Source: a virus
Taxonomy: Duplodnaviria > Heunggongvirae > Uroviricota > Caudoviricetes
IMG/VR virus record: IMGVR_UViG_2654587570_000002
Coordinates: 1-35,662 of that record
Reading direction: 5' to 3' (one strand)
DNA length: 35,662 nt
The notes beneath the pieces were generated by a model. The model was not told the DNA's origin. It did no database searches and saw only the letters and a list, made by a program, of their open reading frames with translations. Below are positions 1-31,798 of this stretch, one piece after another (the stretch's first letter is position 1; each line of letters starts with the position of its first letter). The translations under genes and the position numbers were made by a program.

Positions 1-330
1 AGAATCAGATTAATGACGGCCCAGGCGGAAGCGCAGGAACTTAAAAACGAGCGCGAACGCGGCGAGGTGATTGATACAAAGTTTTGCATCTACGCGATTT
101 CAAAACTAGCGAGTCAGATTTCATCAATCATGGACAGCCTCCCGCTCACAATGCAAAGGCGCTTTCCCGATATAAGGCCGTATATGCTGGATGAACTAAA
201 AAGGGAAATAGCCAAAGCATGTAACGCATGTGCAAGACTTGACGAAAACCTGCCACAGATACTGGCTGATTACCTGATGGAAACTACCGGAAACGCGCCT
301 GAGAAGTTGCTACAGAACAAAGGCGAGTAA
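1..330 (+). CDS. Nu1-type terminase small subunit, C-terminal fragment (5' end lies outside window)
   Basis: Frame is open from base 1; translation ...AQAEAQELKNERERGEVIDTKFCIYAISKLASQISSIMDSLPLTMQRRFPD... resembles the C-terminal half of lambda gpNu1 as recalled; no adjacent large terminase gene follows. Confidence 0.6.
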   Translation, partial: RIRLMTAQAEAQELKNERERGEVIDTKFCIYAISKLASQISSIMDSLPLTMQRRFPDIRPYMLDELKREIAKACNACARLDENLPQILADYLMETTGNAPEKLLQNKGE

Positions 331-403
331 CCGCCGCCCCGTAACGGGCCATAATTCCAGGAAGGACCCGACGACACCAGGCTATCGGAACGATGAGGGC
401 ACA

Positions 404-685
404 ATGACTGAAGCCGAACTACTGGGATTAATCCGCCGCGTCGTCGGAATCAGCCAGCAGCATGACGAACAGGCCACACAGCCGGACAGCGTGACCGCTG
501 AAAATTATGTGCGTGTTGTTGCTGAGGTGATGCGCCGTGATGGTATTGAGCTTAACGGCGTGGATATGCGCAACATACGAACAAGAGTCCTTGAGTTGCT
601 GGCATACCGTCGCCGTTCTCAACAACGGAGGGAGAGCGCGAAAAATACTTACCAGTGGAAGAAGCCGGAACGGTTGCGGCGGTAG
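404..685 (+). CDS. hypothetical protein (93 aa), Arg-rich C-terminus
   Basis: ORF directly downstream of the Nu1-like fragment; no recognisable motif; not similar to a lambda gpA N-terminus. Confidence 0.3.
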   Translation: MTEAELLGLIRRVVGISQQHDEQATQPDSVTAENYVRVVAEVMRRDGIELNGVDMRNIRTRVLELLAYRRRSQQRRESAKNTYQWKKPERLRR

Positions 686-1092
686 ATTCCTGATATTCAG
701 GAAAACCACGAATCTGTGGGGTTTACTGGCGCGGTTACGGCGGTGACACGCACCGAGGCAGAACAATTACCGTAGGTTAAAGCGACAGTATTCACACCAA
801 AGGCAGAAATTAGCGGTTAACGTAACTGACTGATATTTTCGGGAACAGCCAACGGCTGAGGCCGGAGCTATAAAAATAGCTTTGGGTACAGTCCTCAGTT
901 TTGAGGGATGTTAACCAACTGAATAATAAGCAAACCTCAAAATTGAGTTTTGTATCTGCCTGAGTTATTTCTGTGCTAACTTGCTGATATTCCCGATAAC
1001 GTAAAATTGCGTTGGCTGGCAGAGTGCAAATTTGCACGATGGCCTAACCCATTGATTGTTTCGGAAACCTCAATTTGAGGAGGCCGGACAGC

Positions 1093-1127
1093 GTGACGGA
1101 GGGTGACAACCAGTGACACGCCGTGAC
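1093..1127. repeat. four direct GTGAC repeats at exact 10-bp phasing
   Basis: GTGAC begins at 1093, 1103, 1113 and 1123 (cGTGACggag gGTGACaacc aGTGACacgc cGTGACaaaa); one helical turn apart. Confidence 0.5.
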
Positions 1128-1797
1128 AAAAAGACGGTTTAACCATCCATTAAAAATCGACGTGATTTTGTGCTTTCCGTATGAGGTGGCCAGCGTCATT
1201 TTTTAGTGAGAAATTCTGGTCAGGGGCGTTGGCTGAATGGTTATTTTATCGTGCCCATGCACAGGGAGGGGGCGGGTAAAATCTCTGGAGGTGATGCCTG
1301 TCAGGACCGCCGCCTGACCCTTCCTCACATCGCCGCAGGTTCGAAAACTTTTTTTGTGTCAGGTGTGCACGGAATTGATAGGTAAAACCTATATTAAAAA
1401 ATCACGGAAGCCGCGCCATTGCTGGATCAGTCAAAAATTCCACATCTCACGGCAGGCAAAAAAAGCGAATTTTGGGCCAGTTGAGGATAAAAAAGGGCTC
1501 ACTAGTTTTGCACATCCTGGTATCGGGGTCGTCAGCCTCCCGCCAGTAACCAGGTAACTAATCACGCTGGTGGGCATGATGCCGATGCCGGGATCTCGGT
1601 ATCGGTTTATCTGTGATCATCCACCAGCTTGATGACAGATAACAGGGAGTCATAACGATTAAAATTGTATATTTTTGCAGCAAACATTTTTAGCTACACG
1701 TTAAGCTATACGATTTTGAGTTTAAATTTTTTGTATTCAATTAAATCAAATGGTTATATGCACGTTTTGAATACTCTCGTGCCAAAAATCCCTTAAG

Positions 1798-1826
1798 AAC
1801 CAGCCTATTATGGCTGGTTTTTTTAT
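1798..1826 (+). terminator. rho-independent terminator-like hairpin followed by T7 run
   Basis: aaccagcc-tatta-tggctggtt followed by ttttttt; no convincing protein gene upstream on the + strand. Confidence 0.45.
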
Positions 1827-2273: not shown

Positions 2274-2628
2274 TTAGCACGTAGGAAATCATTCAATACT
2301 CGCACTATCGGAAGTTCACCAGCCAGTCGTAGCACGTCCTTGCAAACGACGTGCCTACAATTTCAATCACCTCTCACCATCAGTTCTATCAATAATAATT
2401 AAACAGCGCCTAGACAAAATAAATAACAACAAGTCAACAACCTCGACAGGATGCCGATGGGATGATGAAGAGATAAGAAAGAATAACCAGTAAAGCCCTA
2501 AAACGTCAGCGTTCAGACGCGTTTTTTACTTAACCGGTAACAAATACGTTGTATCATAGCAGAATAAAATGATTGTTCTAAATCAGATTAACTCCTCACT
2601 TTTGTACAATGTCGCTTACAGGTATACC

Positions 2629-4518
2629 ATGAAATCCGAGACGCTAACTGTCCAACAACTTTTTCAAGACCGCCGACAATACTGTGTTCCATTCTATCAA
2701 CGTGCCTATGTATGGACTCAGCAAGACCAATGGTCAGCTCTACTGGAGGATATCCTAGAGAAAGCACAATCCCGGCTCTCGGGTACAAAACCAACTCCCC
2801 ATTTCCTTGGTGCGGTTGTACTGGAACCTCAATCAAAAAAAGGATTATTAGGTGTAGATTCCATACATATTATTGATGGTCAGCAACGATTGACCACTCT
2901 TCAATATGTTCTGGCATCCATCCGATTAGCATTACGTGCTACGGATCTTTCCAGCTTAGAGGCTCTCATTTCGCCTTGCCTGAAAAACTCAAACGAAGAC
3001 ACAATGCGAAATAAAGAAGTAGAACGCTTCAAACTGTGGCCAACTTTTCGGGATCAAACTCATTTTATTCAAAGTTTTAATGTTGAAAATATTGACGATC
3101 TCCGGGACGTATTCTCTGATAGTTTCACGCAGCATGGTACGTTGCGTAAGCGTTTTAATCACCCGCCATCACTAGAAGCATTATGTTTTTTTACTAAAGC
3201 CTTTATAAAATGGATTAAAATAGAAAACCACTCACCACAAGAAAATGCTGTAGCTCTAATTGAGGCTGTCTTAACAGATCTGAAACTGGTAAGCATATTT
3301 CTCGAAGCTGAAGATGATGCCCAAATAATTTTTGAAACATTAAATGGGCGAGGGGCGGAACTTCATGCTACGGATCTTATTCGCAACTATATCTTTATGT
3401 GCGCAGAGCATGAAAATATTAATGCTATTGAATTATATGAAAATGAGTGGAAGAGCTTTGAAGATAAATACTGGTCGGAAAAACAACGCCGTGGACGTAT
3501 TAATAAACCACGCATGGAGTGGCTAGTACATGCGACATTGCAATCAGAAAGGCAGCGTGAAATTGATCTGTCTCGCCTTTACAATGAGTATCGTGATTAT
3601 GTAAGTAAGGACTTGTCTTCACAACGAGCAGATCTGCAAGTAAAGCGCCTCAAACAATATGCATTACAATATAAAGAATTGGTTGATGGTTTTGGCACAA
3701 CCCCCATCTCACACTTTGGATATCGCATCGCAGACTATGATGTGACGACACTTTATCCGCTTGCTTTGTTCATTTCGATAGCTAACATCGCTGATGATGA
3801 GAAAGCAGCCATGTATAATGATCTTGTCTCCTACGTAGTACGAAGAGCCGTATGTGGCCTGACGCCAAAGAATTACAACAATGTATTTATGAATGTATTG
3901 CGGCACTTGGCTAAAACGGAAATTTCCAGTGTTGAGTTACGTAATATCCTCAATAACTTAAATGGCGAAGCCTCACGTTGGCCTGGTGACTCAGAATTTC
4001 TCAACGCTTGCATCAATGCTCCACTTTATCCTGGCAGGCTCGACGCACCGAAAATGCGCTCAATGTTAACGGAACTTGAAAGAGAACTTTGTCGCCAAGT
4101 GAAGACCGAAAAGCCTGATGTTCCAAATCTTTCTAATCTCGATATCGATCATCTTATGCCCCAAAGTTGGTATTCCTGTTGGCCTCTCGAAAATGGTCGT
4201 ATGGTGACAAATTCAGATGCTACGGTATTGAACCAAATTGTTCTGTCTGGAACCGATCTTACCCCTGAACAGCTACTGGTAAGGAAACGGCAACAAGCGA
4301 TAGCTACTTTGGGAAATCTAACTTTGCTTAACCTTAGCGTAAACCGTTCTGTTCAGAATGCTGTATTTCTGAAAAAACGTGATGCTCTCATCGTCCACAC
4401 CAATCTACGACTGAACATTCCACTTATAGTTAAGGATAAATGGGATGAGGATGAAATCCTGGAGCGGGGTAAAAATTTGGGGGAAATTGCATTGAAAGTA
4501 TGGCCAAAACACGATTAA
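2629..4518 (+). CDS. GmrSD-like type IV restriction-type nuclease (N-terminal DUF262/ParB-like domain, C-terminal DUF1524 His-Me finger domain)
   Basis: N-terminal FYQRAYVW and IIDGQQRLTTLQ (DGQQR motif); C-terminal LDIDHLMPQSW (DxDH motif); roughly 40% GC against higher-GC tail genes; ORF track opens at 2569 but the ATG at 2629 (MKSETLTVQQLF) is the more typical family start. Confidence 0.8.
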   Translation: MKSETLTVQQLFQDRRQYCVPFYQRAYVWTQQDQWSALLEDILEKAQSRLSGTKPTPHFLGAVVLEPQSKKGLLGVDSIHIIDGQQRLTTLQYVLASIRLALRATDLSSLEALISPCLKNSNEDTMRNKEVERFKLWPTFRDQTHFIQSFNVENIDDLRDVFSDSFTQHGTLRKRFNHPPSLEALCFFTKAFIKWIKIENHSPQENAVALIEAVLTDLKLVSIFLEAEDDAQIIFETLNGRGAELHATDLIRNYIFMCAEHENINAIELYENEWKSFEDKYWSEKQRRGRINKPRMEWLVHATLQSERQREIDLSRLYNEYRDYVSKDLSSQRADLQVKRLKQYALQYKELVDGFGTTPISHFGYRIADYDVTTLYPLALFISIANIADDEKAAMYNDLVSYVVRRAVCGLTPKNYNNVFMNVLRHLAKTEISSVELRNILNNLNGEASRWPGDSEFLNACINAPLYPGRLDAPKMRSMLTELERELCRQVKTEKPDVPNLSNLDIDHLMPQSWYSCWPLENGRMVTNSDATVLNQIVLSGTDLTPEQLLVRKRQQAIATLGNLTLLNLSVNRSVQNAVFLKKRDALIVHTNLRLNIPLIVKDKWDEDEILERGKNLGEIALKVWPKHD

Positions 4519-4613: not shown

Positions 4614-4742
4614 CTAGGTCTCGGACTTTGTACCGCTTATCTTGTTTTCAAAAATCAGCTCGCATCCTGCACAGTTCAGCGCATTACGTTGTAGATCTGT
4701 GTTCTGGTCATTTGTTGATACGCGTACATAGCCAATAAGCAT
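4614..4742 (-). pseudogene. Gin/Pin/Hin-family serine invertase gene, N-terminal 41-codon remnant
   Basis: Minus-strand translation from ATG at 4742: MLIGYVRVSTNDQNTDLQRNALNCAGCELIFENKISGTKSET-stop; matches the invertase N-terminus (catalytic-Ser VRVST motif) as recalled, then similarity ends abruptly. Confidence 0.8.
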
Positions 4743-4768
4743 GGTAGATCCCCCTGACAAAAGCAGGA

Positions 4769-5182
4769 ATGATGCCATTTGCTCGTTATTTCTGCATTTT
4801 CATAAACGTTGGTTTGGGAGAAGCAGCAAAACGAGGGGTGGGGACAGGGGAAAATCAGATACCGGACATGACCTCTTTTGCCAGTGGTGATGGATGGATG
4901 AAATTACCCAACGGGAAAATCCTGCAATATGGTCGAGGTGAGGCTATGCCGAAATTATCGACGCAAACAATGAGGATTACATTTCCTATCCCTTTCCCTA
5001 AAAAAGCGGATATCGCCATTCTTACCCATTCTGGCGATGGCGGTGCGCCTTTTGGTGCAGGGCGTGGATTCGTTATGTCCGTAGAAGGCCCAACATTAAC
5101 CGGCTTTAATTCTGCTTACAGAACTGCATCAACCAGCGACAAGGTGTCAATGACTTACAGTTGGTGGGCTGTTGGTGAATAA
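4769..5182 (+). CDS. alternative tail-fibre C-terminal variable domain (silent cassette in present orientation)
   Basis: Shares VGLGE at the crossover site with the constant part and would be in frame with it after inversion; no independent start expected (the ATG at 4769 lies outside the crossover site). Confidence 0.6.
   Translation: MMPFARYFCIFINVGLGEAAKRGVGTGENQIPDMTSFASGDGWMKLPNGKILQYGRGEAMPKLSTQTMRITFPIPFPKKADIAILTHSGDGGAPFGAGRGFVMSVEGPTLTGFNSAYRTASTSDKVSMTYSWWAVGE
4797..4822. repeat. hix/gix-like crossover site (left end of invertible segment)
   Basis: TTTTCATAAACG-TT-GGTTTGGGAGAA; the last 14 bp are identical to the reverse complement of the site at 6717-6742. Confidence 0.65.
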
Positions 5183-6696: not shown

Positions 6697-7019
6697 ACCG
6701 CAGGTAATGCAGAGCCTTCTCCCAAACCAAGGTTTTCGAGAGCCGTTTTCACCGTGCCATCCGATTTGATATCACCAAACGGATTCTTGCGGCTTAACAG
6801 CAGAGCACGAAGCGCGGTAAGCAACTGGTCGTTTCGCCCCTTCTCCAGGCTGGCACCGGATGCCTCCACCACGCTGCAAAGCTCCTCCTGCAACATATCA
6901 AAGTAGTCATCATCCAGATCGGTGGCAGGTGTGCCGGTCTGGGGGTTACCACGGGTAAAACCGTTCTTACCCGCGCCGAACTTATCCTTCTGCGCGGTTT
7001 TCGTGTCTATACGATGCAT
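6651..7019 (-). CDS. tail fibre, constant N-terminal part (terminates 20 codons past the crossover site in this orientation)
   Basis: [46 protein letters not shown]... resembles Mu S / e14 Stf N-termini as recalled; ...LENLGLGE spans the crossover site. Confidence 0.7.
6717..6742. repeat. hix/gix-like crossover site (right end, inside the tail-fibre gene)
   Basis: + strand TTCTCCCAAACC-AA-GGTTTTCGAGAG; compare hixL TTCTTGAAAACC-AA-GGTTTTTGATAA as recalled. Confidence 0.65.
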
Positions 7020-26046: not shown

Positions 26047-26382
26047 TTACTCCTTAGAGCCACCAAACTTGTTACCGATTACTCTCATTGCAGCCCCACG
26101 AATTGCATCGACCCCGATCAGCCCCACCCCACCACCAATGGCAACAGAAAGCGATTTAGGCCATCCGACATACTCAAGCGCGGATGCAAAGGTCAGCGTC
26201 AGAGCGCCACAGAGCAAAATTTCGAGTGTTTTTCGTTTCCAGCCGCCACCACCACCAAAATAGGCAATACGCAAACCAGCCATAACAATCGACATAATCA
26301 CTGCGCCCAGCGGCGTATCTCCACGCCACCAGCTCTGGAACAACTCCAGCCAGTCCGGCCAGGTATTTGGGTTATGAGGCAT
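26047..26382 (-). CDS. S: holin, lambda S family
   Basis: Three hydrophobic segments and C-terminal basic tail; pattern IAYFGGGGGWKRKT / GLIGVDAIRG resembles lambda S; start set at the ATG at 26382 (in-frame GTG and ATG upstream could give a longer form). Confidence 0.7.
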   Translation of the reverse strand: MPHNPNTWPDWLELFQSWWRGDTPLGAVIMSIVMAGLRIAYFGGGGGWKRKTLEILLCGALTLTFASALEYVGWPKSLSVAIGGGVGLIGVDAIRGAAMRVIGNKFGGSKE

Positions 26383-26459
26383 TTCGTCATCTCTCACCTC
26401 GCGATTATTTGCGGGTGCTGTGTTGGAAATAAAAAGGCCACGCAACGTGGCCACCAGAA

Positions 26460-27249
26460 TTATTTCCCCACCAGTTCACTTACCTCTTTCACTGTCTGGT
26501 TAAACCGATCTGACTCAAGCTCAACACCTAACGCCCGACGCCCCAGCTCCATTGCTGCTTTTATTGTGGAACCAGATCCCATAAAAAAATCAGCAACCAG
26601 ATCACCTGGTCGACTACTGGCATTGATTATTTGCCGGAGCATATCCGCCGGTTTCTCACACGGATGTTTACCCGGGTAGAACTGAACGGGTTTATGCGTC
26701 CAGACATCGGTATAAGGCACGGAGACTGATACGGAGAAATAGCGCCGGAGAGATTTAAACTCATCCAGCAATTCAGAATATTTGCGATTCAGTGAATCAT
26801 AAGATGCCACCAGCTGGTGGTGTGTCTGTTCCAGTTGTTGTTCCTGAAACTTCTCTGCCGCTATACGGGAAAACAGTGCCTGCAACTTCCGGTAGTCAGC
26901 CTCATTCGGCAACTGCCACTGACTGGCACCAAACCAGTGGGAAACCATGTTTTTCTTACCAGTGTTCACGCATCATGATCTCGATATCAGATGCCAGGCG
27001 ATGTCCACAGAACAGGTAAAGGCTTCCGGCAGGTTTCAGCACCCGCCAGAACTGAGCCAGACAGTGGTCCAGCCACTTAAGGTAATCTTCGTCCCCTTTC
27101 CACTGATTGTCCCAACCGTTGGGCTTCACTTTGAAGTACGGCGGATCGGTAACTATCAGGTCAATGGAATCATCAGGCAGGGACTGAATAAAATGCAGGC
27201 AATCAGCGTTGATTAAATCAACACTGTTTATTTTTACAGTATTTTTCAT
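26460..27249 (-). pseudogene. beta-class DNA methyltransferase (motif IV DPPY then motif I FxGxG), split into two ORFs by a frameshift
   Basis: ORF 26956-27249 has IDLIVTDPPYF; ORF 26460-26969 has DLVADFFMGSGSTIKAA; the two overlap by 14 nt in different frames. Confidence 0.65.
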
Positions 27250-27398
27250 GAATCAGTAAGCGTAACTCTGGTAGGCTCACTCTGCTTTTGCGCTAAAGCA
27301 GTGGGCCATGGTTCGCTTGTGACCAGTAAGCATGAGCGAATGGCTGGCAGGTGCTACCAACACCCACCAGCCGCCCATTTTCACAAATTAAAAGCCCT

Positions 27399-27617
27399 TC
27401 ATTGCTGAAGGCGTCTGTAACAGCCGAACTGGTAATCTGCCAGCCCCGCCATAACCAGCTGGGTCAGTATTAACTGACAGCGTTCGCGTGAAAGGTATGT
27501 GTTTTGTGCTATCTCCCCGACTGTTGCCGGTTCGACGCTTAATTCATTAAAAACAACTTTCGCCGTTTCTGTCATATCTAGCTGTTTTAGCATGTCTTTT
27601 TTCCTTCTGGTTAACAT
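27399..27617 (-). CDS. hypothetical small protein (72 aa), first gene of the late operon
   Basis: ORF immediately downstream of the tR'-like terminator; possible winged-helix character only. Confidence 0.35.
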   Translation of the reverse strand: MLTRRKKDMLKQLDMTETAKVVFNELSVEPATVGEIAQNTYLSRERCQLILTQLVMAGLADYQFGCYRRLQQ

Positions 27618-27712
27618 GACATACCAATAACTCTTGTCTAAAAAGCCAGCAAGATAAAAAGTCAGTATTCACGACCACCAGCGTGTTTACCGTACTGCCA
27701 ACATCAAGGCAC

Positions 27713-27735
27713 AAAAAAACCCGCTCAGCGGCGGG
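27713..27735 (-). terminator. rho-independent terminator downstream of the late promoter (tR'-like)
   Basis: Minus strand CCCGC-cgctga-GCGGG followed by TTTTTTT. Confidence 0.5.
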
Positions 27736-27783
27736 TTCTTAAATCTTATCAACGGTAGACATACAAAGCCCATCGTTGGGAAA

Positions 27784-27812
27784 ATCTTATCCATATTTTT
27801 TGAAAAATGCAA
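27784..27812 (-). promoter_or_regulatory. candidate late promoter (PR'-like) between Q and the terminator
   Basis: Minus strand TTGCAT-N17-TAAGAT about 65 nt upstream of the terminator; arrangement matches lambda PR'-6S-tR'. Confidence 0.35.
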
Positions 27813-27843
27813 GAATTATGTCGCCATCTTCGGCGAAAATCAT

Positions 27844-28596
27844 TTATCTCGTCACTTTTCTTAATTGCGTCTCAGCATATGCTTCTTCCTGCCAGCACTT
27901 TGTCACCAGTTTATCAATGACATCTGCATATCCTTTGTACCACTGATAATCCGTCAAATCTGGTACCAGTTTCTGTACATGACACCGCGCCAGTGTCGTT
28001 GGTAAACGGCTAAACCGGTTTCCATTGCAACGTCCACAAATCTTATAAACAGGCGTGCCATGAAGCCGGGTCCTTTTTTCATCCAGGACAATACCTTTAC
28101 CCTTACACCCTCTGCACGCTGTGCTGACTTCTCCCTTACCATGGCAATGCTGACACAGTTCCTTTACCCACTCTTCCTTGATAACAGATTCCCCGCTTCT
28201 GGAGTGTTTCACCACTTCGCGCAATACATTATGAAATCCAGTACCAGCACAATGCTCACAGCGAGCCTTACTTGCCGCAGACCTGGAATAATCAGCAAAG
28301 GCAAAATTCACAAGGTAAGGAATGATCTGTAGCCGGGTTTCTTCACTCAATTTGTTCAATGTCGGGTTATCCAGTGCCATCGCGTAATTGAGCAGACCTT
28401 CAATCGCAAACTGAGGATCCTGAACACCAACTTTTGCCAGGAATAAGGCAAACCCAAGCGGTGCTTTCGACTGCACCATCCCCTGCGCAGCCATTACATC
28501 CGTAATTGTTAAACCACCAGAGCCTGTCGCCGGTGCGTCATCGCTCAATTTTGGAGATTTTGGGGAGTAATATTTCGGTAAGGCTTCAAGGTTCAT
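27844..28596 (-). CDS. Q: late antiterminator Q-like protein (zinc-binding)
   Basis: CEHCAGTG...CQHCHGKG...CRGCKGKG...CGRCNG Cys clusters; start set at the ATG at 28596 (GGAGAA RBS); position just upstream of late promoter and lysis genes. Confidence 0.7.
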   Translation of the reverse strand: MNLEALPKYYSPKSPKLSDDAPATGSGGLTITDVMAAQGMVQSKAPLGFALFLAKVGVQDPQFAIEGLLNYAMALDNPTLNKLSEETRLQIIPYLVNFAFADYSRSAASKARCEHCAGTGFHNVLREVVKHSRSGESVIKEEWVKELCQHCHGKGEVSTACRGCKGKGIVLDEKRTRLHGTPVYKICGRCNGNRFSRLPTTLARCHVQKLVPDLTDYQWYKGYADVIDKLVTKCWQEEAYAETQLRKVTR

Positions 28597-29606: not shown

Positions 29607-30416
29607 TCAATGAACGGTATCGAGCAGCTTTAACAGCTCAGGGAATCGGGATTCGAAGAAATGCGGCTGCGTCTCGCGCGGATTTGCGGGACTGGTGATG
29701 TTCTTGCCGAACATGCAGCCTTTCGCCGTCAGCGACCAGAATTTTTTGATGTTGTTAATCGCAGTGCGGCTGTATCGTTCACGTTGTTCAACGATCCCCA
29801 GCTTCGCCATCTGGTGATATGCCTGATTAGCTGTCAGGCGGATACCATACTGCTTCAGCAGTGCACTCAATGACAGCGTGGGGCGGCTTGAGCCATCAGG
29901 CGCGTCAGCAGGAGCATCAATGGCATAGCGCGGTGCCAGATTCGGTAAGCCAACAGCCTCCTGGAGTTTCTGACAGGCACCAAGCACTGAAGAGTTAGAC
30001 AGGTTTAACTCCCGGCGCATAAAGTCCAGCAGGATCACGCCAGCCTGCATCTTGTCAGCAGCCTGTCCGGATAATTTTTCCGGTGCGCTGGTTACCATAT
30101 CGAAAGTACGGATCACCTTCAGATGGAATGACGGGCTGATCCACATTGCATAGGCATACACCAGTTCCTTGCAGACATACGTTCCCCGTTCATTTCCCCC
30201 ATGAATCACACTCACCGGGTCAACACCCAAATTCTGGGTGTTGGTCAATTCATGAACAAGCTCAACAGTTTGTTGGCTGGAAAGAAACTTTCCCGGCTCC
30301 TTGGTTCTGGCATTTGCACCAGATGCTACTGCTGCGCGATGCAGATCGTTCAGGCTGTAACGCCCATAAGCATCACGACGAACTTCAATACCATCAATGA
30401 CCATCAGATTATTCAT
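29607..30416 (-). CDS. KilA-N domain protein (antirepressor-like)
   Basis: N-terminal ...GTYVCKELVYAYAMWISPSFHLKVIRTF typical of KilA-N. Confidence 0.7.
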   Translation of the reverse strand: MNNLMVIDGIEVRRDAYGRYSLNDLHRAAVASGANARTKEPGKFLSSQQTVELVHELTNTQNLGVDPVSVIHGGNERGTYVCKELVYAYAMWISPSFHLKVIRTFDMVTSAPEKLSGQAADKMQAGVILLDFMRRELNLSNSSVLGACQKLQEAVGLPNLAPRYAIDAPADAPDGSSRPTLSLSALLKQYGIRLTANQAYHQMAKLGIVEQRERYSRTAINNIKKFWSLTAKGCMFGKNITSPANPRETQPHFFESRFPELLKLLDTVH

Positions 30417-30825: not shown

Positions 30826-31148
30826 ACTTTCAGGCCTCTCTCATGTAACCAGTGGGCTGCACGCAGCCTGGCGTTTTCCTCACCGGCAAGCAATGCGCGG
30901 ATAATCCCGACCGCCTCGCTGTCGTCGTCCTTCACCGCGGTATGAAGCGTTATCCCCCGGGCCACGCCACGCTTTATCGTGATGACGCCTTTTTTCTCCA
31001 GTGCACGAAGATGCTCTACCGCTGCATTCACTGAACGGTATCCCAGCATGGTTGCCACCTCCTGATTGGTTGGCGGAAAGCCACGCTCTTTCTGGTAAGA
31101 AATCAGCATATCCAGCACCTGCTGCTGGCATTGAGTTAACGTCGTCAT
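30822..31148 (-). CDS. LexA DNA-binding-domain homologue lacking the S24 peptidase domain
   Basis: LTQCQQQVLDMLISYQKERGFPPTNQEVATMLGYRSVNAAVEHLRALEKKGVITIKRGVARGITL aligns with the LexA N-terminal domain ([65 protein letters not shown]) as recalled; only 108 aa. Confidence 0.65.
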   Translation of the reverse strand: MTTLTQCQQQVLDMLISYQKERGFPPTNQEVATMLGYRSVNAAVEHLRALEKKGVITIKRGVARGITLHTAVKDDDSEAVGIIRALLAGEENARLRAAHWLHERGLKV

Positions 31149-31798
31149 GCCGCCATCTCCCTGACCAGTTTTTCCGCCTGCTGGCGAACCTGCACCAGAA
31201 AGGCTTCACCACATGCCTCAAGTTCATCGCGCCCGATGTAGCTGATTGCCGGTCCCTTCCAGGTCTTGTCGAAAACAGCAATAGCACCAGCGAAGAAAGC
31301 GCCTGTCGGCACCTGCTTCTCATCCTTCGGGATAAACCAGGCAGGCAGTTCAAAACCAATACGCCCGCGAATAAAAGCAATATGGTCCGCATCTTCCGGC
31401 CACCACACTTCGCTGGTGGCAGCTTTGATCAGGAAAACATAGCGCCCGCCCTTATCACGCATGGCACTGGCATGTTTCATGATGTAACGCATGCCGGTGA
31501 TGTATTGCCCCTCATGCTGACTGGCGCGGCTGTATGGGGGATTACCAAAGGCAGCACCTTTAAGCTCCGCAAGACGTTCTGACCAGTCATGCGCCAGCGC
31601 GTTATCTTCCGCCGTGTAATACGCGGCACATTTGGCGTTATCACCGTCAGTAAACAGATCCAGAACAAACGGGCCAAACAGGGTGTTAATTCCCCAGAAA
31701 ATGTTGTCCGGCGTGCGCCACTGATCGCCCACTTCCTTCAGTTCATGGGCTGGTTTGTTCCGCAGTTCCACCAGCGCCTGGCAATATTTATTACTCAT
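31145..31798 (-). CDS. phage-type N6-adenine DNA methyltransferase (Dam-like, NPPY)
   Basis: AAFGNPPYS motif; start set at the ATG at 31798 which overlaps the upstream stop as TAATG. Confidence 0.8.
   Translation of the reverse strand: MSNKYCQALVELRNKPAHELKEVGDQWRTPDNIFWGINTLFGPFVLDLFTDGDNAKCAAYYTAEDNALAHDWSERLAELKGAAFGNPPYSRASQHEGQYITGMRYIMKHASAMRDKGGRYVFLIKAATSEVWWPEDADHIAFIRGRIGFELPAWFIPKDEKQVPTGAFFAGAIAVFDKTWKGPAISYIGRDELEACGEAFLVQVRQQAEKLVREMAA

What the first reader, a model, noticed from the sequence alone, without database searches (positions are those of the whole stretch)
26460..27249. Frameshifted beta-class methyltransferase in the late operon, in a prophage that also carries a Dam-like methylase and a type IV-like nuclease
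DPPY (motif IV) and FxGxG (motif I, FFMGSGST) lie in two overlapping ORFs that are out of frame around 26956-26969, so the enzyme is split. A second, intact phage-type N6-adenine methylase sits at 31145-31798. Self-methylation by a prophage that also carries a modification-dependent nuclease candidate (2629-4518) raises a compatibility question: either the nuclease targets a different modification, or inactivation of one methylase was selected.
Basis: partly seen in the sequence, partly recalled or inferred. Interest (0 to 1): 0.45.

Follow-up and report, generated by a model that had tools for sequence, protein, structure and literature searches.

The report
Deletion-killed M.EcoGII-type phage adenine methylase
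The "frameshifted" methylase is a dead copy of a well-known prophage enzyme family (M.EcoGII, which methylates every adenine), broken by a 263-base internal deletion seen only in this one E. coli isolate, so the finding is ordinary gene decay and not a conflict with the neighbouring nuclease.

Summary
The two out-of-frame ORFs are real (26956-27249 with DPPY; 26460-26969 with FFMGSGST, minus strand). The lesion is not a small frameshift. A 263-bp internal deletion (junction at 26963-26965, 1 bp of microhomology) removes codons 96-183 of a 350-codon gene. Both flanks are 100% identical to an intact allele in E. coli LD27-1.

The intact gene belongs to the M.EcoGII family. It is about 80% identical, essentially gap-free, to M.EcoGII, the characterised non-specific N6-adenine methyltransferase of E. 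coli prophages. That enzyme is silent in lysogens and harmful when expressed constitutively. Here the gene sits, with a conserved 64-aa partner ORF, downstream of Q, a pR'-like promoter and tR', and upstream of the holin.

The deletion removes the end of the catalytic Rossmann half, the dimer interface, the linker and the start of the DNA-binding domain. The gene is therefore dead. The allele was found only on this contig (JHTB01000045.1) plus one other contig not shown.

The "type IV-like nuclease" matches Eco94GmrSD, which cuts hydroxymethyl- and glucosyl-hydroxymethyl-cytosine DNA. At least four complete genomes carry it together with an intact methylase in one prophage. Selection through incompatibility is not supported.

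The parts
26956..27249 (-). N-terminal remnant of the methyltransferase gene. Residues 1-95 are identical to the intact 350-aa allele (motif IV DPPY at 35-38), followed by out-of-frame His-Trp-stop.
26460..26969 (-). C-terminal remnant ORF. Its residues 3-169 are identical to residues 184-350 of the intact allele (motif I FFMGSGST). True homology starts at the junction, about 26963.
26963..26965 (.). Deletion junction: 263 bp are missing relative to LD27-1, SfV orf48 and mEp460 gp53. One shared C (26964) is the only microhomology.
27399..27593 (-). Conserved 64-aa partner ORF (weak winged-helix matches; phrog_331, function unknown). It precedes the methylase in SfV (orf47), mEp460, LD27-1 and YF-1, and in Stx phage 1720a-02 (95% identical).
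27702..27737 (-). tR'-like intrinsic terminator, identical in sequence to the terminator annotated in phage SfV.
27784..27812 (-). pR'-like promoter candidate, TTGCAT-17 nt-TAAGAT, just downstream of Q. This is an inference from sequence; it falls below the scan threshold.
   Evidence: read by eye; not reported
27844..28596 (-). Late antiterminator Q (PF03589).
26436..26452 (-). Stem-loop (7 pairs, 6 G-C) followed by a T-run downstream (TTTTTATTTC, to about 26426). It forms a terminator-like site between the methylase remnant and the holin, and corresponds to the second terminator annotated in SfV.
26047..26382 (-). Holin S (PF05106), the first lysis gene.
31145..31798 (-). Intact early-region phage N6-adenine methyltransferase (PF05869, TIGR01712).
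2629..4518 (+). Eco94GmrSD-type single-chain type IV restriction enzyme, 629 aa, with D507, H508, C517, N522, N528 and N535 in place.

Best explanation
The locus is a pseudogene of an M.EcoGII-family beta-class N6-adenine DNA methyltransferase. In intact relatives the 350-aa enzyme is encoded with a small upstream ORF in the cargo slot between Q/pR'/tR' and the holin. It would therefore be made only when Q antiterminates late transcription. Its presumed role is to methylate adenines in replicating phage DNA without sequence preference, so that progeny escape restriction in the next host. In this isolate a single illegitimate deletion of 263 bp (1 bp of microhomology) removed codons 96-183 and shifted the frame. 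That takes out the last strands of the N-terminal Rossmann half, the whole dimer interface (97-110, 116-140), the interdomain linker and the first helices of the helix-turn-helix DNA-binding domain (160-237). Neither remnant can be an active enzyme. The rest of the prophage's late region is collinear with that of a relative carrying an intact gene. The loss is most simply a recent, private, neutral or mildly beneficial decay event. Shown: the deletion, its endpoints, its rarity, the family assignment by sequence and the genomic context. Inferred: late-only expression, non-specific activity of the ancestral allele, and the absence of selection.
For: Deletion: alignments with SfV orf48, mEp460 gp53 and LD27-1 show 263 extra bases in all three, and the LD27-1 flanks are 100% identical. 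The N remnant equals residues 1-95 and the C remnant equals residues 184-350. The missing part is ancestral. The intact protein matches PF01555 end to end. Its residues up to 114-151 align with the solved beta-class enzymes 8urk/9c3u and M.RsrI, including NHIIWAKP. Family: the intact allele is 80% identical without gaps to the phage 1720a-02 methylase, which the M.EcoGII paper names as very similar to M.EcoGII (PMC5778455). It shares 280 of 350 residues with the M.EcoGII sequence and 306 with the active ancestor Anc291, both printed in the PMC11551740 supplement. Domain boundaries and the dimer interface come from PMC11551740. Context: Q, tR' identical to SfV's, the small ORF, the methylase, a terminator and the holin. 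Rarity: the junction string has 0 hits in IMG/VR, GTDB representative genomes and JGI metagenomes. All junction hits at 100% and 99.3% identity in 5426 complete E. coli genomes are two-piece, meaning intact. The exact 97-aa and 169-aa products are on record only for this contig plus one other contig that was not shown; the sources listed are NCBI and Logan. 93 of 95 phage records have a full-length copy. The structural, lysis and late-regulatory regions are collinear with the LD27-1 prophage for about 27 kb. The 263 bp is the only large gap inside a gene; a short divergent stretch lies near 30201-30340.
Against: Raw reads could not be inspected, so an assembly error is not formally excluded. 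Non-specific activity of this particular allele lineage (80% identical to M.EcoGII) has not been measured. The M.EcoGII sequence used was machine-read from a PDF and contains a few reading errors, so identities are approximate. Nothing here distinguishes neutral loss from selected loss.
Confidence: 0.88

Rival explanations
1. Loss of the methylase was selected because its product conflicts with the GmrSD-type modification-dependent nuclease carried by the same prophage.
For: Both genes are in one prophage, and GmrSD-family enzymes do attack modified DNA.
Against: The window nuclease has the length (629 aa) and all six mutagenised residues (D507, H508, C517, N522, N528, N535) of Eco94GmrSD. It also has the same position directly after the tail-fibre genes of an SfII/SfV-like prophage. 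Eco94GmrSD cuts glc-5hmC and 5hmC DNA and has poor activity on Dam+ Dcm+ lambda DNA. YF-1, CFSAN064036, SW071618 and 14EC001 have this nuclease gene plus an intact 350-aa methylase in one prophage. Five more records span both loci. BrxU, another GmrSD-family enzyme, works alongside an N6-adenine methylase within a BREX island.
Confidence: 0.03
2. Loss was selected for another reason. Leaky expression of an enzyme that methylates every adenine is harmful to the lysogen, or is incompatible with an m6A-dependent host system such as Mrr.
For: Constitutive expression of M.EcoGII was deleterious to E. coli, and the gene is silent in its native lysogen (PMC5778455). Mrr restricts some N6mA DNA (PMC4437046 introduction).
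Against: About 1000 of 5426 complete E. coli genomes keep a full-length copy, and 93 of 95 phage records do too. The gene lies behind tR', so it should be off in the lysogen. The deletion is private to one isolate. The host genome is not in the window, so the presence of Mrr is unknown.
Confidence: 0.07
3. The deletion is an assembly artefact of a draft short-read assembly, and the real gene is intact.
For: The window is a whole 35.7-kb contig of a draft assembly. This prophage family is repeated within genomes, which breaks and sometimes garbles assemblies.
Against: There is no repeat at the endpoints that could collapse: only 1 bp is shared, and the nearest 7-mer repeat is offset by 30 bp. 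Both flanks are otherwise perfect. The same two products are recorded on a second contig, with NCBI and Logan listed as sources. The identity of that second contig was not shown.
Confidence: 0.04
4. The gene is a naturally split or programmed-frameshift enzyme whose two products still assemble into an active methylase.
For: PHROGs holds two half-length families for this protein, phrog_6025 for residues 1-204 and phrog_6952 for residues 170-349. Vibrio phage VP585 has the gene annotated as two proteins.
Against: Those halves together cover the whole protein. Here 88 residues are absent, including a conserved catalytic-domain segment and the conserved dimer interface. No other record shares this split point. 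No slippery-site logic applies to a 263-bp gap.
Confidence: 0.01

Closest known systems
M.EcoGII (GenBank EGT69837.1) and M.EcoGI of E. coli O104:H4 C227-11, non-specific beta-class N6-adenine methyltransferases (PMC5778455; PMC11551740)
   Same: The ancestral allele is the same length (350 vs 349 aa). It has the same motif order (DPPY, helix-turn-helix recognition domain, FxGxG) and is about 80% identical and collinear. It is prophage-borne. A family member named in the M.EcoGII paper, phage 1720a-02, has the gene in the same Q-proximal late slot with the same small upstream ORF.
   Different: The window copy lacks residues 96-183 and is frameshifted, so it cannot be active. The activity of this allele lineage (SfV orf48, cdtI and mEp460 type) has not been measured. 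The genomic slot of M.EcoGII itself in C227-11 was not checked here.
SfV orf48, mEp460 gp53, phage cdtI methylase and E. coli WP_061811782 (LD27-1)
   Same: 96-100% nucleotide identity on both sides of the deletion, with the same flanking genes: Q, tR', 64-aa ORF, terminator, holin.
   Different: All of these are intact 1053-bp genes. The window has 790 bp.
Eco94GmrSD (WP_000834395), single-chain type IV restriction enzyme (PMC4437046). It is relevant to the neighbouring gene the finding invokes.
   Same: 629 aa, with DUF262 and DUF1524 domains and D507-H508-N522 plus C517, N528 and N535 at identical positions. It is located directly after the tail-fibre genes of an SfII/SfV-like prophage.
   Different: Substrate preference is inferred from the orthologue.
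Mom/Com module of phage Mu and other late-expressed phage anti-restriction DNA modification genes
   Same: These are late-expressed, toxic if deregulated, give broad protection of progeny DNA, and have a small upstream ORF. One Aeromonas phage homologue of this methylase is annotated next to a Com-like regulator.
   Different: The chemistry and the protein family are different. No regulatory role of the 64-aa ORF has been shown.

Membership tests
Beta-class N6-adenine/N4-cytosine DNA methyltransferases (Pfam PF01555) | Motif IV (D/S-PP-Y/F) lies N-terminal, the recognition domain is central, and motif I (FxGxG) is C-terminal. | tested here: met
   DPPY is in the 97-aa remnant and FFMGSGST is in the 169-aa remnant, matching PF01555 positions 1-67 and 132-220.
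Beta-class N6-adenine/N4-cytosine DNA methyltransferases (Pfam PF01555) | A complete catalytic fold in one reading frame. | tested here: not met
   Profile positions 68-131 are absent. Residues 96-183 are deleted and the two halves are in different frames.
M.EcoGII family (non-specific adenine methyltransferase) | Full-length collinear similarity to M.EcoGII (349 aa). | tested here: met
   This holds for the ancestral intact allele, LD27-1, whose flanks are identical to the window: 280 of 350 residues identical to M.EcoGII, 306 to Anc291, and 80% without gaps to the phage 1720a-02 enzyme. The window copy retains 262 of 350 residues.
M.EcoGII family (non-specific adenine methyltransferase) | Conserved dimer interface (residues 97-110 and 116-140) and four-helix recognition domain (160-237). 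| tested here: not met
   The deletion of residues 96-183 removes the whole interface and the first 24 residues of the recognition domain (boundaries from PMC11551740).
M.EcoGII family (non-specific adenine methyltransferase) | Methylation of adenine in any sequence context. | not testable with these tools
   This needs enzyme assays or methylome data. The activity is published for M.EcoGII, M.EcoGI and reconstructed ancestors.
M.EcoGII family (non-specific adenine methyltransferase) | Prophage-borne and not expressed in the lysogen. | tested here: inconclusive
   The location downstream of Q, a pR'-like promoter and tR' is shown. Expression was not measured.
GmrSD type IV restriction enzymes (Eco94GmrSD type), for the neighbouring gene | DUF262 NTPase/DNA-binding domain plus DUF1524 His-Me finger domain with the D507-H508-N522 catalytic residues. 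| tested here: met
   GmrSD_N E 4e-34 and GmrSD_C E 4e-20. Residue positions were checked.
GmrSD type IV restriction enzymes (Eco94GmrSD type), for the neighbouring gene | Cleavage dependent on 5hmC or glc-5hmC, not on m6A. | not testable with these tools
   Published for Eco94GmrSD, with poor activity on Dam+ Dcm+ lambda DNA.
Programmed frameshift or naturally split gene | The same split point recurs in homologues, and the two products together contain the whole protein. | tested here: not met
   No other record has this junction, and 88 residues are missing.

The most novel reading that the evidence does not exclude
The deletion was fixed because, in this particular host, even leaky or induction-time activity of an all-adenine methyltransferase was costly. 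One example would be a host m6A-dependent nuclease such as Mrr. That would make it a host-driven disarming of a prophage counter-defence gene.
Probability: 0.08. Interest if true: 0.3.

Novelty: already known. Interest (0 to 1): 0.12.

Why it matters
It matters little biologically. It is one private pseudogene in a gene family that is intact in roughly a thousand complete E. coli genomes and in almost all related phages. The practical value lies in annotation. The locus should be labelled [quoted passage not shown] rather than "frameshifted methylase". The nuclease should be labelled an Eco94GmrSD-type enzyme. No methylase-nuclease conflict needs explaining. If the prophage is still inducible, its virions should lack the blanket m6A protection that relatives enjoy. 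That gives a natural negative control for testing what this methylase contributes to host range.

Tried and rejected
1. I first recalled M.EcoGIX as the prophage non-specific methylase. The literature shows M.EcoGIX is plasmid-borne and single-strand specific, so that lead was dropped. The right relative, M.EcoGII, was found through papers on O111 and O104 methylomes.

2. A search for SfV orf48 literature returned an unrelated ORF48 of Pseudomonas phage B3.

3. Stx2c phages matched only the first 337 bases of the query, ending exactly at the junction. This briefly suggested a recombination breakpoint. Those phages in fact carry a full-length 352-aa gene whose distal part is too divergent for megablast.

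4. Two half-length PHROG families suggested natural splitting. Only Vibrio phage VP585 shows a split, at a different place and without loss of residues.

5. Repeat-mediated deletion was rejected, because only 1 bp is shared at the endpoints.

6. Exact-junction scans of IMG/VR, GTDB representatives and JGI metagenomes found nothing.

7. No paper mentions the assembly accession.

8. The supplement of the M.EcoGII paper is not held. The sequence was taken from the SUPREM paper's supplement instead, which has machine-reading errors.

9. I did not run structure prediction or the large protein-database searches, because published domain boundaries and close homologues already answered the question.

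Full report
**What is in the sequence**

On the minus strand there are two overlapping ORFs in different frames. ORF 26956-27249 encodes 97 aa and contains DPPY. ORF 26460-26969 encodes 169 aa and contains FFMGSGST. Both match Pfam PF01555 (N6_N4_Mtase). The first covers profile positions 1-67 and the second covers positions 132-220, so positions 68-131 are matched by nothing. The other two genes named in the finding are also real. Coordinates 31145-31798 (-) hold an intact 217-aa phage N6-adenine methyltransferase (PF05869; TIGR01712 at 255 bits against a cutoff of 97). Coordinates 2629-4518 (+) hold a GmrSD-family protein with both GmrSD domains and a full-length match to PADLOC's type IV model.

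**The lesion is a deletion, not a frameshift**

Megablast against phage genomes returned the locus in two pieces spanning 1163 bases for a 901-base query. Alignment with SfV orf48, mEp460 gp53 and the E. coli LD27-1 gene (all 1053 bp, 350 aa) shows that the window lacks 263 consecutive bases.

- The LD27-1 allele is 100% identical to the window on both sides of the gap.
- The window N-remnant equals residues 1-95 plus His-Trp-stop. Residues 3-169 of the C-remnant equal residues 184-350.
- The endpoints share a single C. The nearest short repeat, a 7-mer, is 30 bp out of register, so the deletion is an illegitimate event and not repeat-mediated.
- The missing stretch is ancestral and not an insertion in the relatives. 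The intact protein matches PF01555 end to end. Its residues up to 114-151, including NHIIWAKP, align with the solved beta-class enzymes 8urk/9c3u and M.RsrI.

**How rare the allele is**

- The junction string has no exact match in IMG/VR, in the GTDB species representatives or in JGI metagenome contigs.
- In 5426 complete E. coli genomes, every junction hit at 100% and at 99.3% identity is a two-piece match spanning 414 bases, meaning an intact gene.
- About 998 genomes carry both halves.
- In the 15-billion-protein collection, the exact 97-aa and 169-aa products are recorded on two contigs. One is JHTB01000045.1 of GCA_001266275.1, which is 35,662 bp long and therefore is the window itself. 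The other was not shown. The listed sources are NCBI and Logan.
- Among phage records, 93 of 95 with a homologue have it full length. Of the 60 records listed in the table, all but one phage (Vibrio phage VP585, listed under two accessions) have it in one piece.

**What the gene was**

The intact allele is 80% identical, without gaps, to the 352-aa methylase of Stx phage 1720a-02. The paper describing M.EcoGII names that phage enzyme as very similar to M.EcoGII. It describes a very large family of prophage-borne beta-class enzymes in E. coli (PMC5778455).

The M.EcoGII sequence printed in the supplement of PMC11551740 is machine-read and has a few obvious reading errors. Against it, the intact allele shares 280 of 350 residues. 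It shares 306 with the reconstructed, experimentally active ancestor Anc291.

M.EcoGII and M.EcoGI methylate adenine in any context. They are not expressed in the lysogen, and M.EcoGII is deleterious when expressed constitutively. The reconstructed ancestors retain DNA and RNA methylation, and the variants tested by nanopore RNA sequencing (M.EcoGII, Anc291, SUPREM) showed no discernible sequence motif. The same paper gives the architecture:

- a Rossmann catalytic domain of residues 1-134 plus 260-349;
- a four-helix recognition domain with a helix-turn-helix at residues 160-237;
- a flexible linker between them;
- a fully conserved dimer interface at residues 97-110 and 116-140, with the dimer thought to be needed for activity.

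Deleting residues 96-183 therefore removes the end of the catalytic half, the whole interface, the linker and the start of the recognition domain. I conclude the window copy is dead. That the ancestral allele was non-specific is an inference from family membership, not a measurement.

**Context**

The window is part of an SfV/e14-like myovirus prophage. The gene order on the minus strand is as follows.

- Q sits at 27844-28596 (PF03589).
- A TTGCAT-17-TAAGAT promoter-like site sits at 27784-27812. I read this by eye; it is below the scan threshold.
- A terminator at 27702-27737 is identical to the one annotated in SfV.
- A 64-aa ORF at 27399-27593 has only weak winged-helix matches and belongs to phrog_331.
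- The methylase remnants follow.
- A G+C-rich stem-loop at 26436-26452 is followed by a T-run.
- The holin, endolysin and Rz genes come last.

The 64-aa ORF travels with the methylase in SfV, mEp460, LD27-1 and YF-1. In phage 1720a-02 it is 95% identical. The methylase cassette is thus a late, Q-dependent cargo module. In Stx phages the same module sits directly upstream of stx2.

The window is collinear with the LD27-1 prophage for about 27 kb. The 263-bp gap is the only sizeable break inside a gene. One 20-kb alignment block has a single gap opening. The prophage is therefore not in general decay.

**The compatibility question**

The window nuclease is 629 aa and carries D507, H508, C517, N522, N528 and N535 at exactly the positions mutagenised in Eco94GmrSD. 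Eco94GmrSD is described as lying immediately downstream of the tail-fibre genes of an SfII-like prophage, which is the arrangement seen here. It cuts glc-5hmC and 5hmC DNA with ATP stimulation and has poor activity on Dam+ Dcm+ lambda DNA. Another family member, BrxU, operates within a BREX island whose PglX enzyme makes N6-methyladenine.

Co-occurrence is direct evidence:

- E. coli YF-1 has the GmrSD gene, the Dam-like gene and an intact 350-aa methylase in one prophage.
- A 24.7-kb query spanning both loci found nine records that cover both ends.
- For four of them the methylase is verified intact by the +263 span: YF-1, CFSAN064036 and SW071618, and 14EC001.

Other GmrSD-bearing relatives simply carry different cargo in the Q-holin slot. 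SFE8, c1-17 and ES8 carry Kiwa, and ATCC 11775 carries a small hypothetical gene. There is no sign that the nuclease and the methylase exclude each other.

**Rivals**

- Selected loss because of GmrSD is contradicted by the evidence above.
- Selected loss because a blanket adenine methylase is costly, or clashes with host Mrr, cannot be excluded from a 35-kb contig. However, the allele is private and full-length copies are very common.
- An assembly artefact is unlikely. There is no repeat to collapse, and a second contig carries the same products. Reads were not available, though.
- A functional split enzyme is excluded by the missing 88 residues.

**Verdict**

This is a recent, isolate-specific deletion pseudogene of a well-characterised prophage methyltransferase family. 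It is ordinary and already explained by known biology.

Noticed in passing
window 4614-4778 (-), 4804-4823 and 6716-6735: There is a truncated Pin/Hin-type serine invertase. Only the first 41 residues remain (MLIGYVRVSTNDQ...), and it sits between the GmrSD gene and the tail-fibre genes. 20-nt inverted repeats (95% complementary, AAACC..GGTTT core) flank a roughly 1.9-kb segment holding two opposed pairs of fibre tip and assembly chaperone. The host-range switch appears locked unless an invertase acts in trans. The same remnant is annotated in YF-1, ATCC 11775 and SFE8.
   Followed up: partly
window 26383-27843; loci L004, L009, L011, L012, L013: The interval between Q and the holin is a swappable cargo slot in this prophage family. 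It holds the M.EcoGII-type methylase plus the 64-aa ORF in the window, LD27-1, SfV and YF-1, and YF-1 has an added nucleoid-associated-protein gene pair. It holds Kiwa KwaA/KwaB in SFE8, c1-17 and ES8, and a small hypothetical gene in ATCC 11775. In Stx phages the methylase is followed by stx2.
   Followed up: partly
window 27399-27593 (-): A 64-aa ORF with weak winged-helix matches (TrmB and DprA_WH, both below cutoff; phrog_331, unknown function) always accompanies the methylase. It is 95% identical in Stx phage 1720a-02, even though the methylases are only 80% identical. It may be a regulator of the module. One Aeromonas phage homologue of the methylase is annotated next to a Com-like regulator.
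   Followed up: partly
window 2285-4518 versus L010 1981-4783: The cargo slot beyond the tail-fibre genes holds the GmrSD gene here. In the closest relative by methylase flanks (LD27-1), it holds gtrA, gtrB and a glycosyltransferase for O-antigen modification. From my own knowledge, K-12 e14 has mcrA at the equivalent place.
   Followed up: partly
window 1-1826: The contig starts inside a different element. ORF 13-330 is the C-terminal part of a Nu1-type small terminase (Pfam positions 91-162 of 164). Bases 1-1826 match 'terminase small subunit | hypothetical protein' regions of other E. coli at 99.5% identity. None of the complete genomes joins this flank to the GmrSD end.
   Followed up: partly
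PHROGs phrog_6025 and phrog_6952; Vibrio phage VP585 (NC_027981.1 39779-40778): The phage protein-family library contains separate N-half and C-half families for this methylase. VP585 has the gene annotated as two proteins (gp53 and gp54). Split copies therefore exist elsewhere, but at a different point and without loss of sequence.
   Followed up: partly
L013 5389-7182 (E. coli ES8): In a related prophage the Q antiterminator gene is interrupted by an IS150. This is an independent example of late-region inactivation in this prophage family.
   Followed up: no
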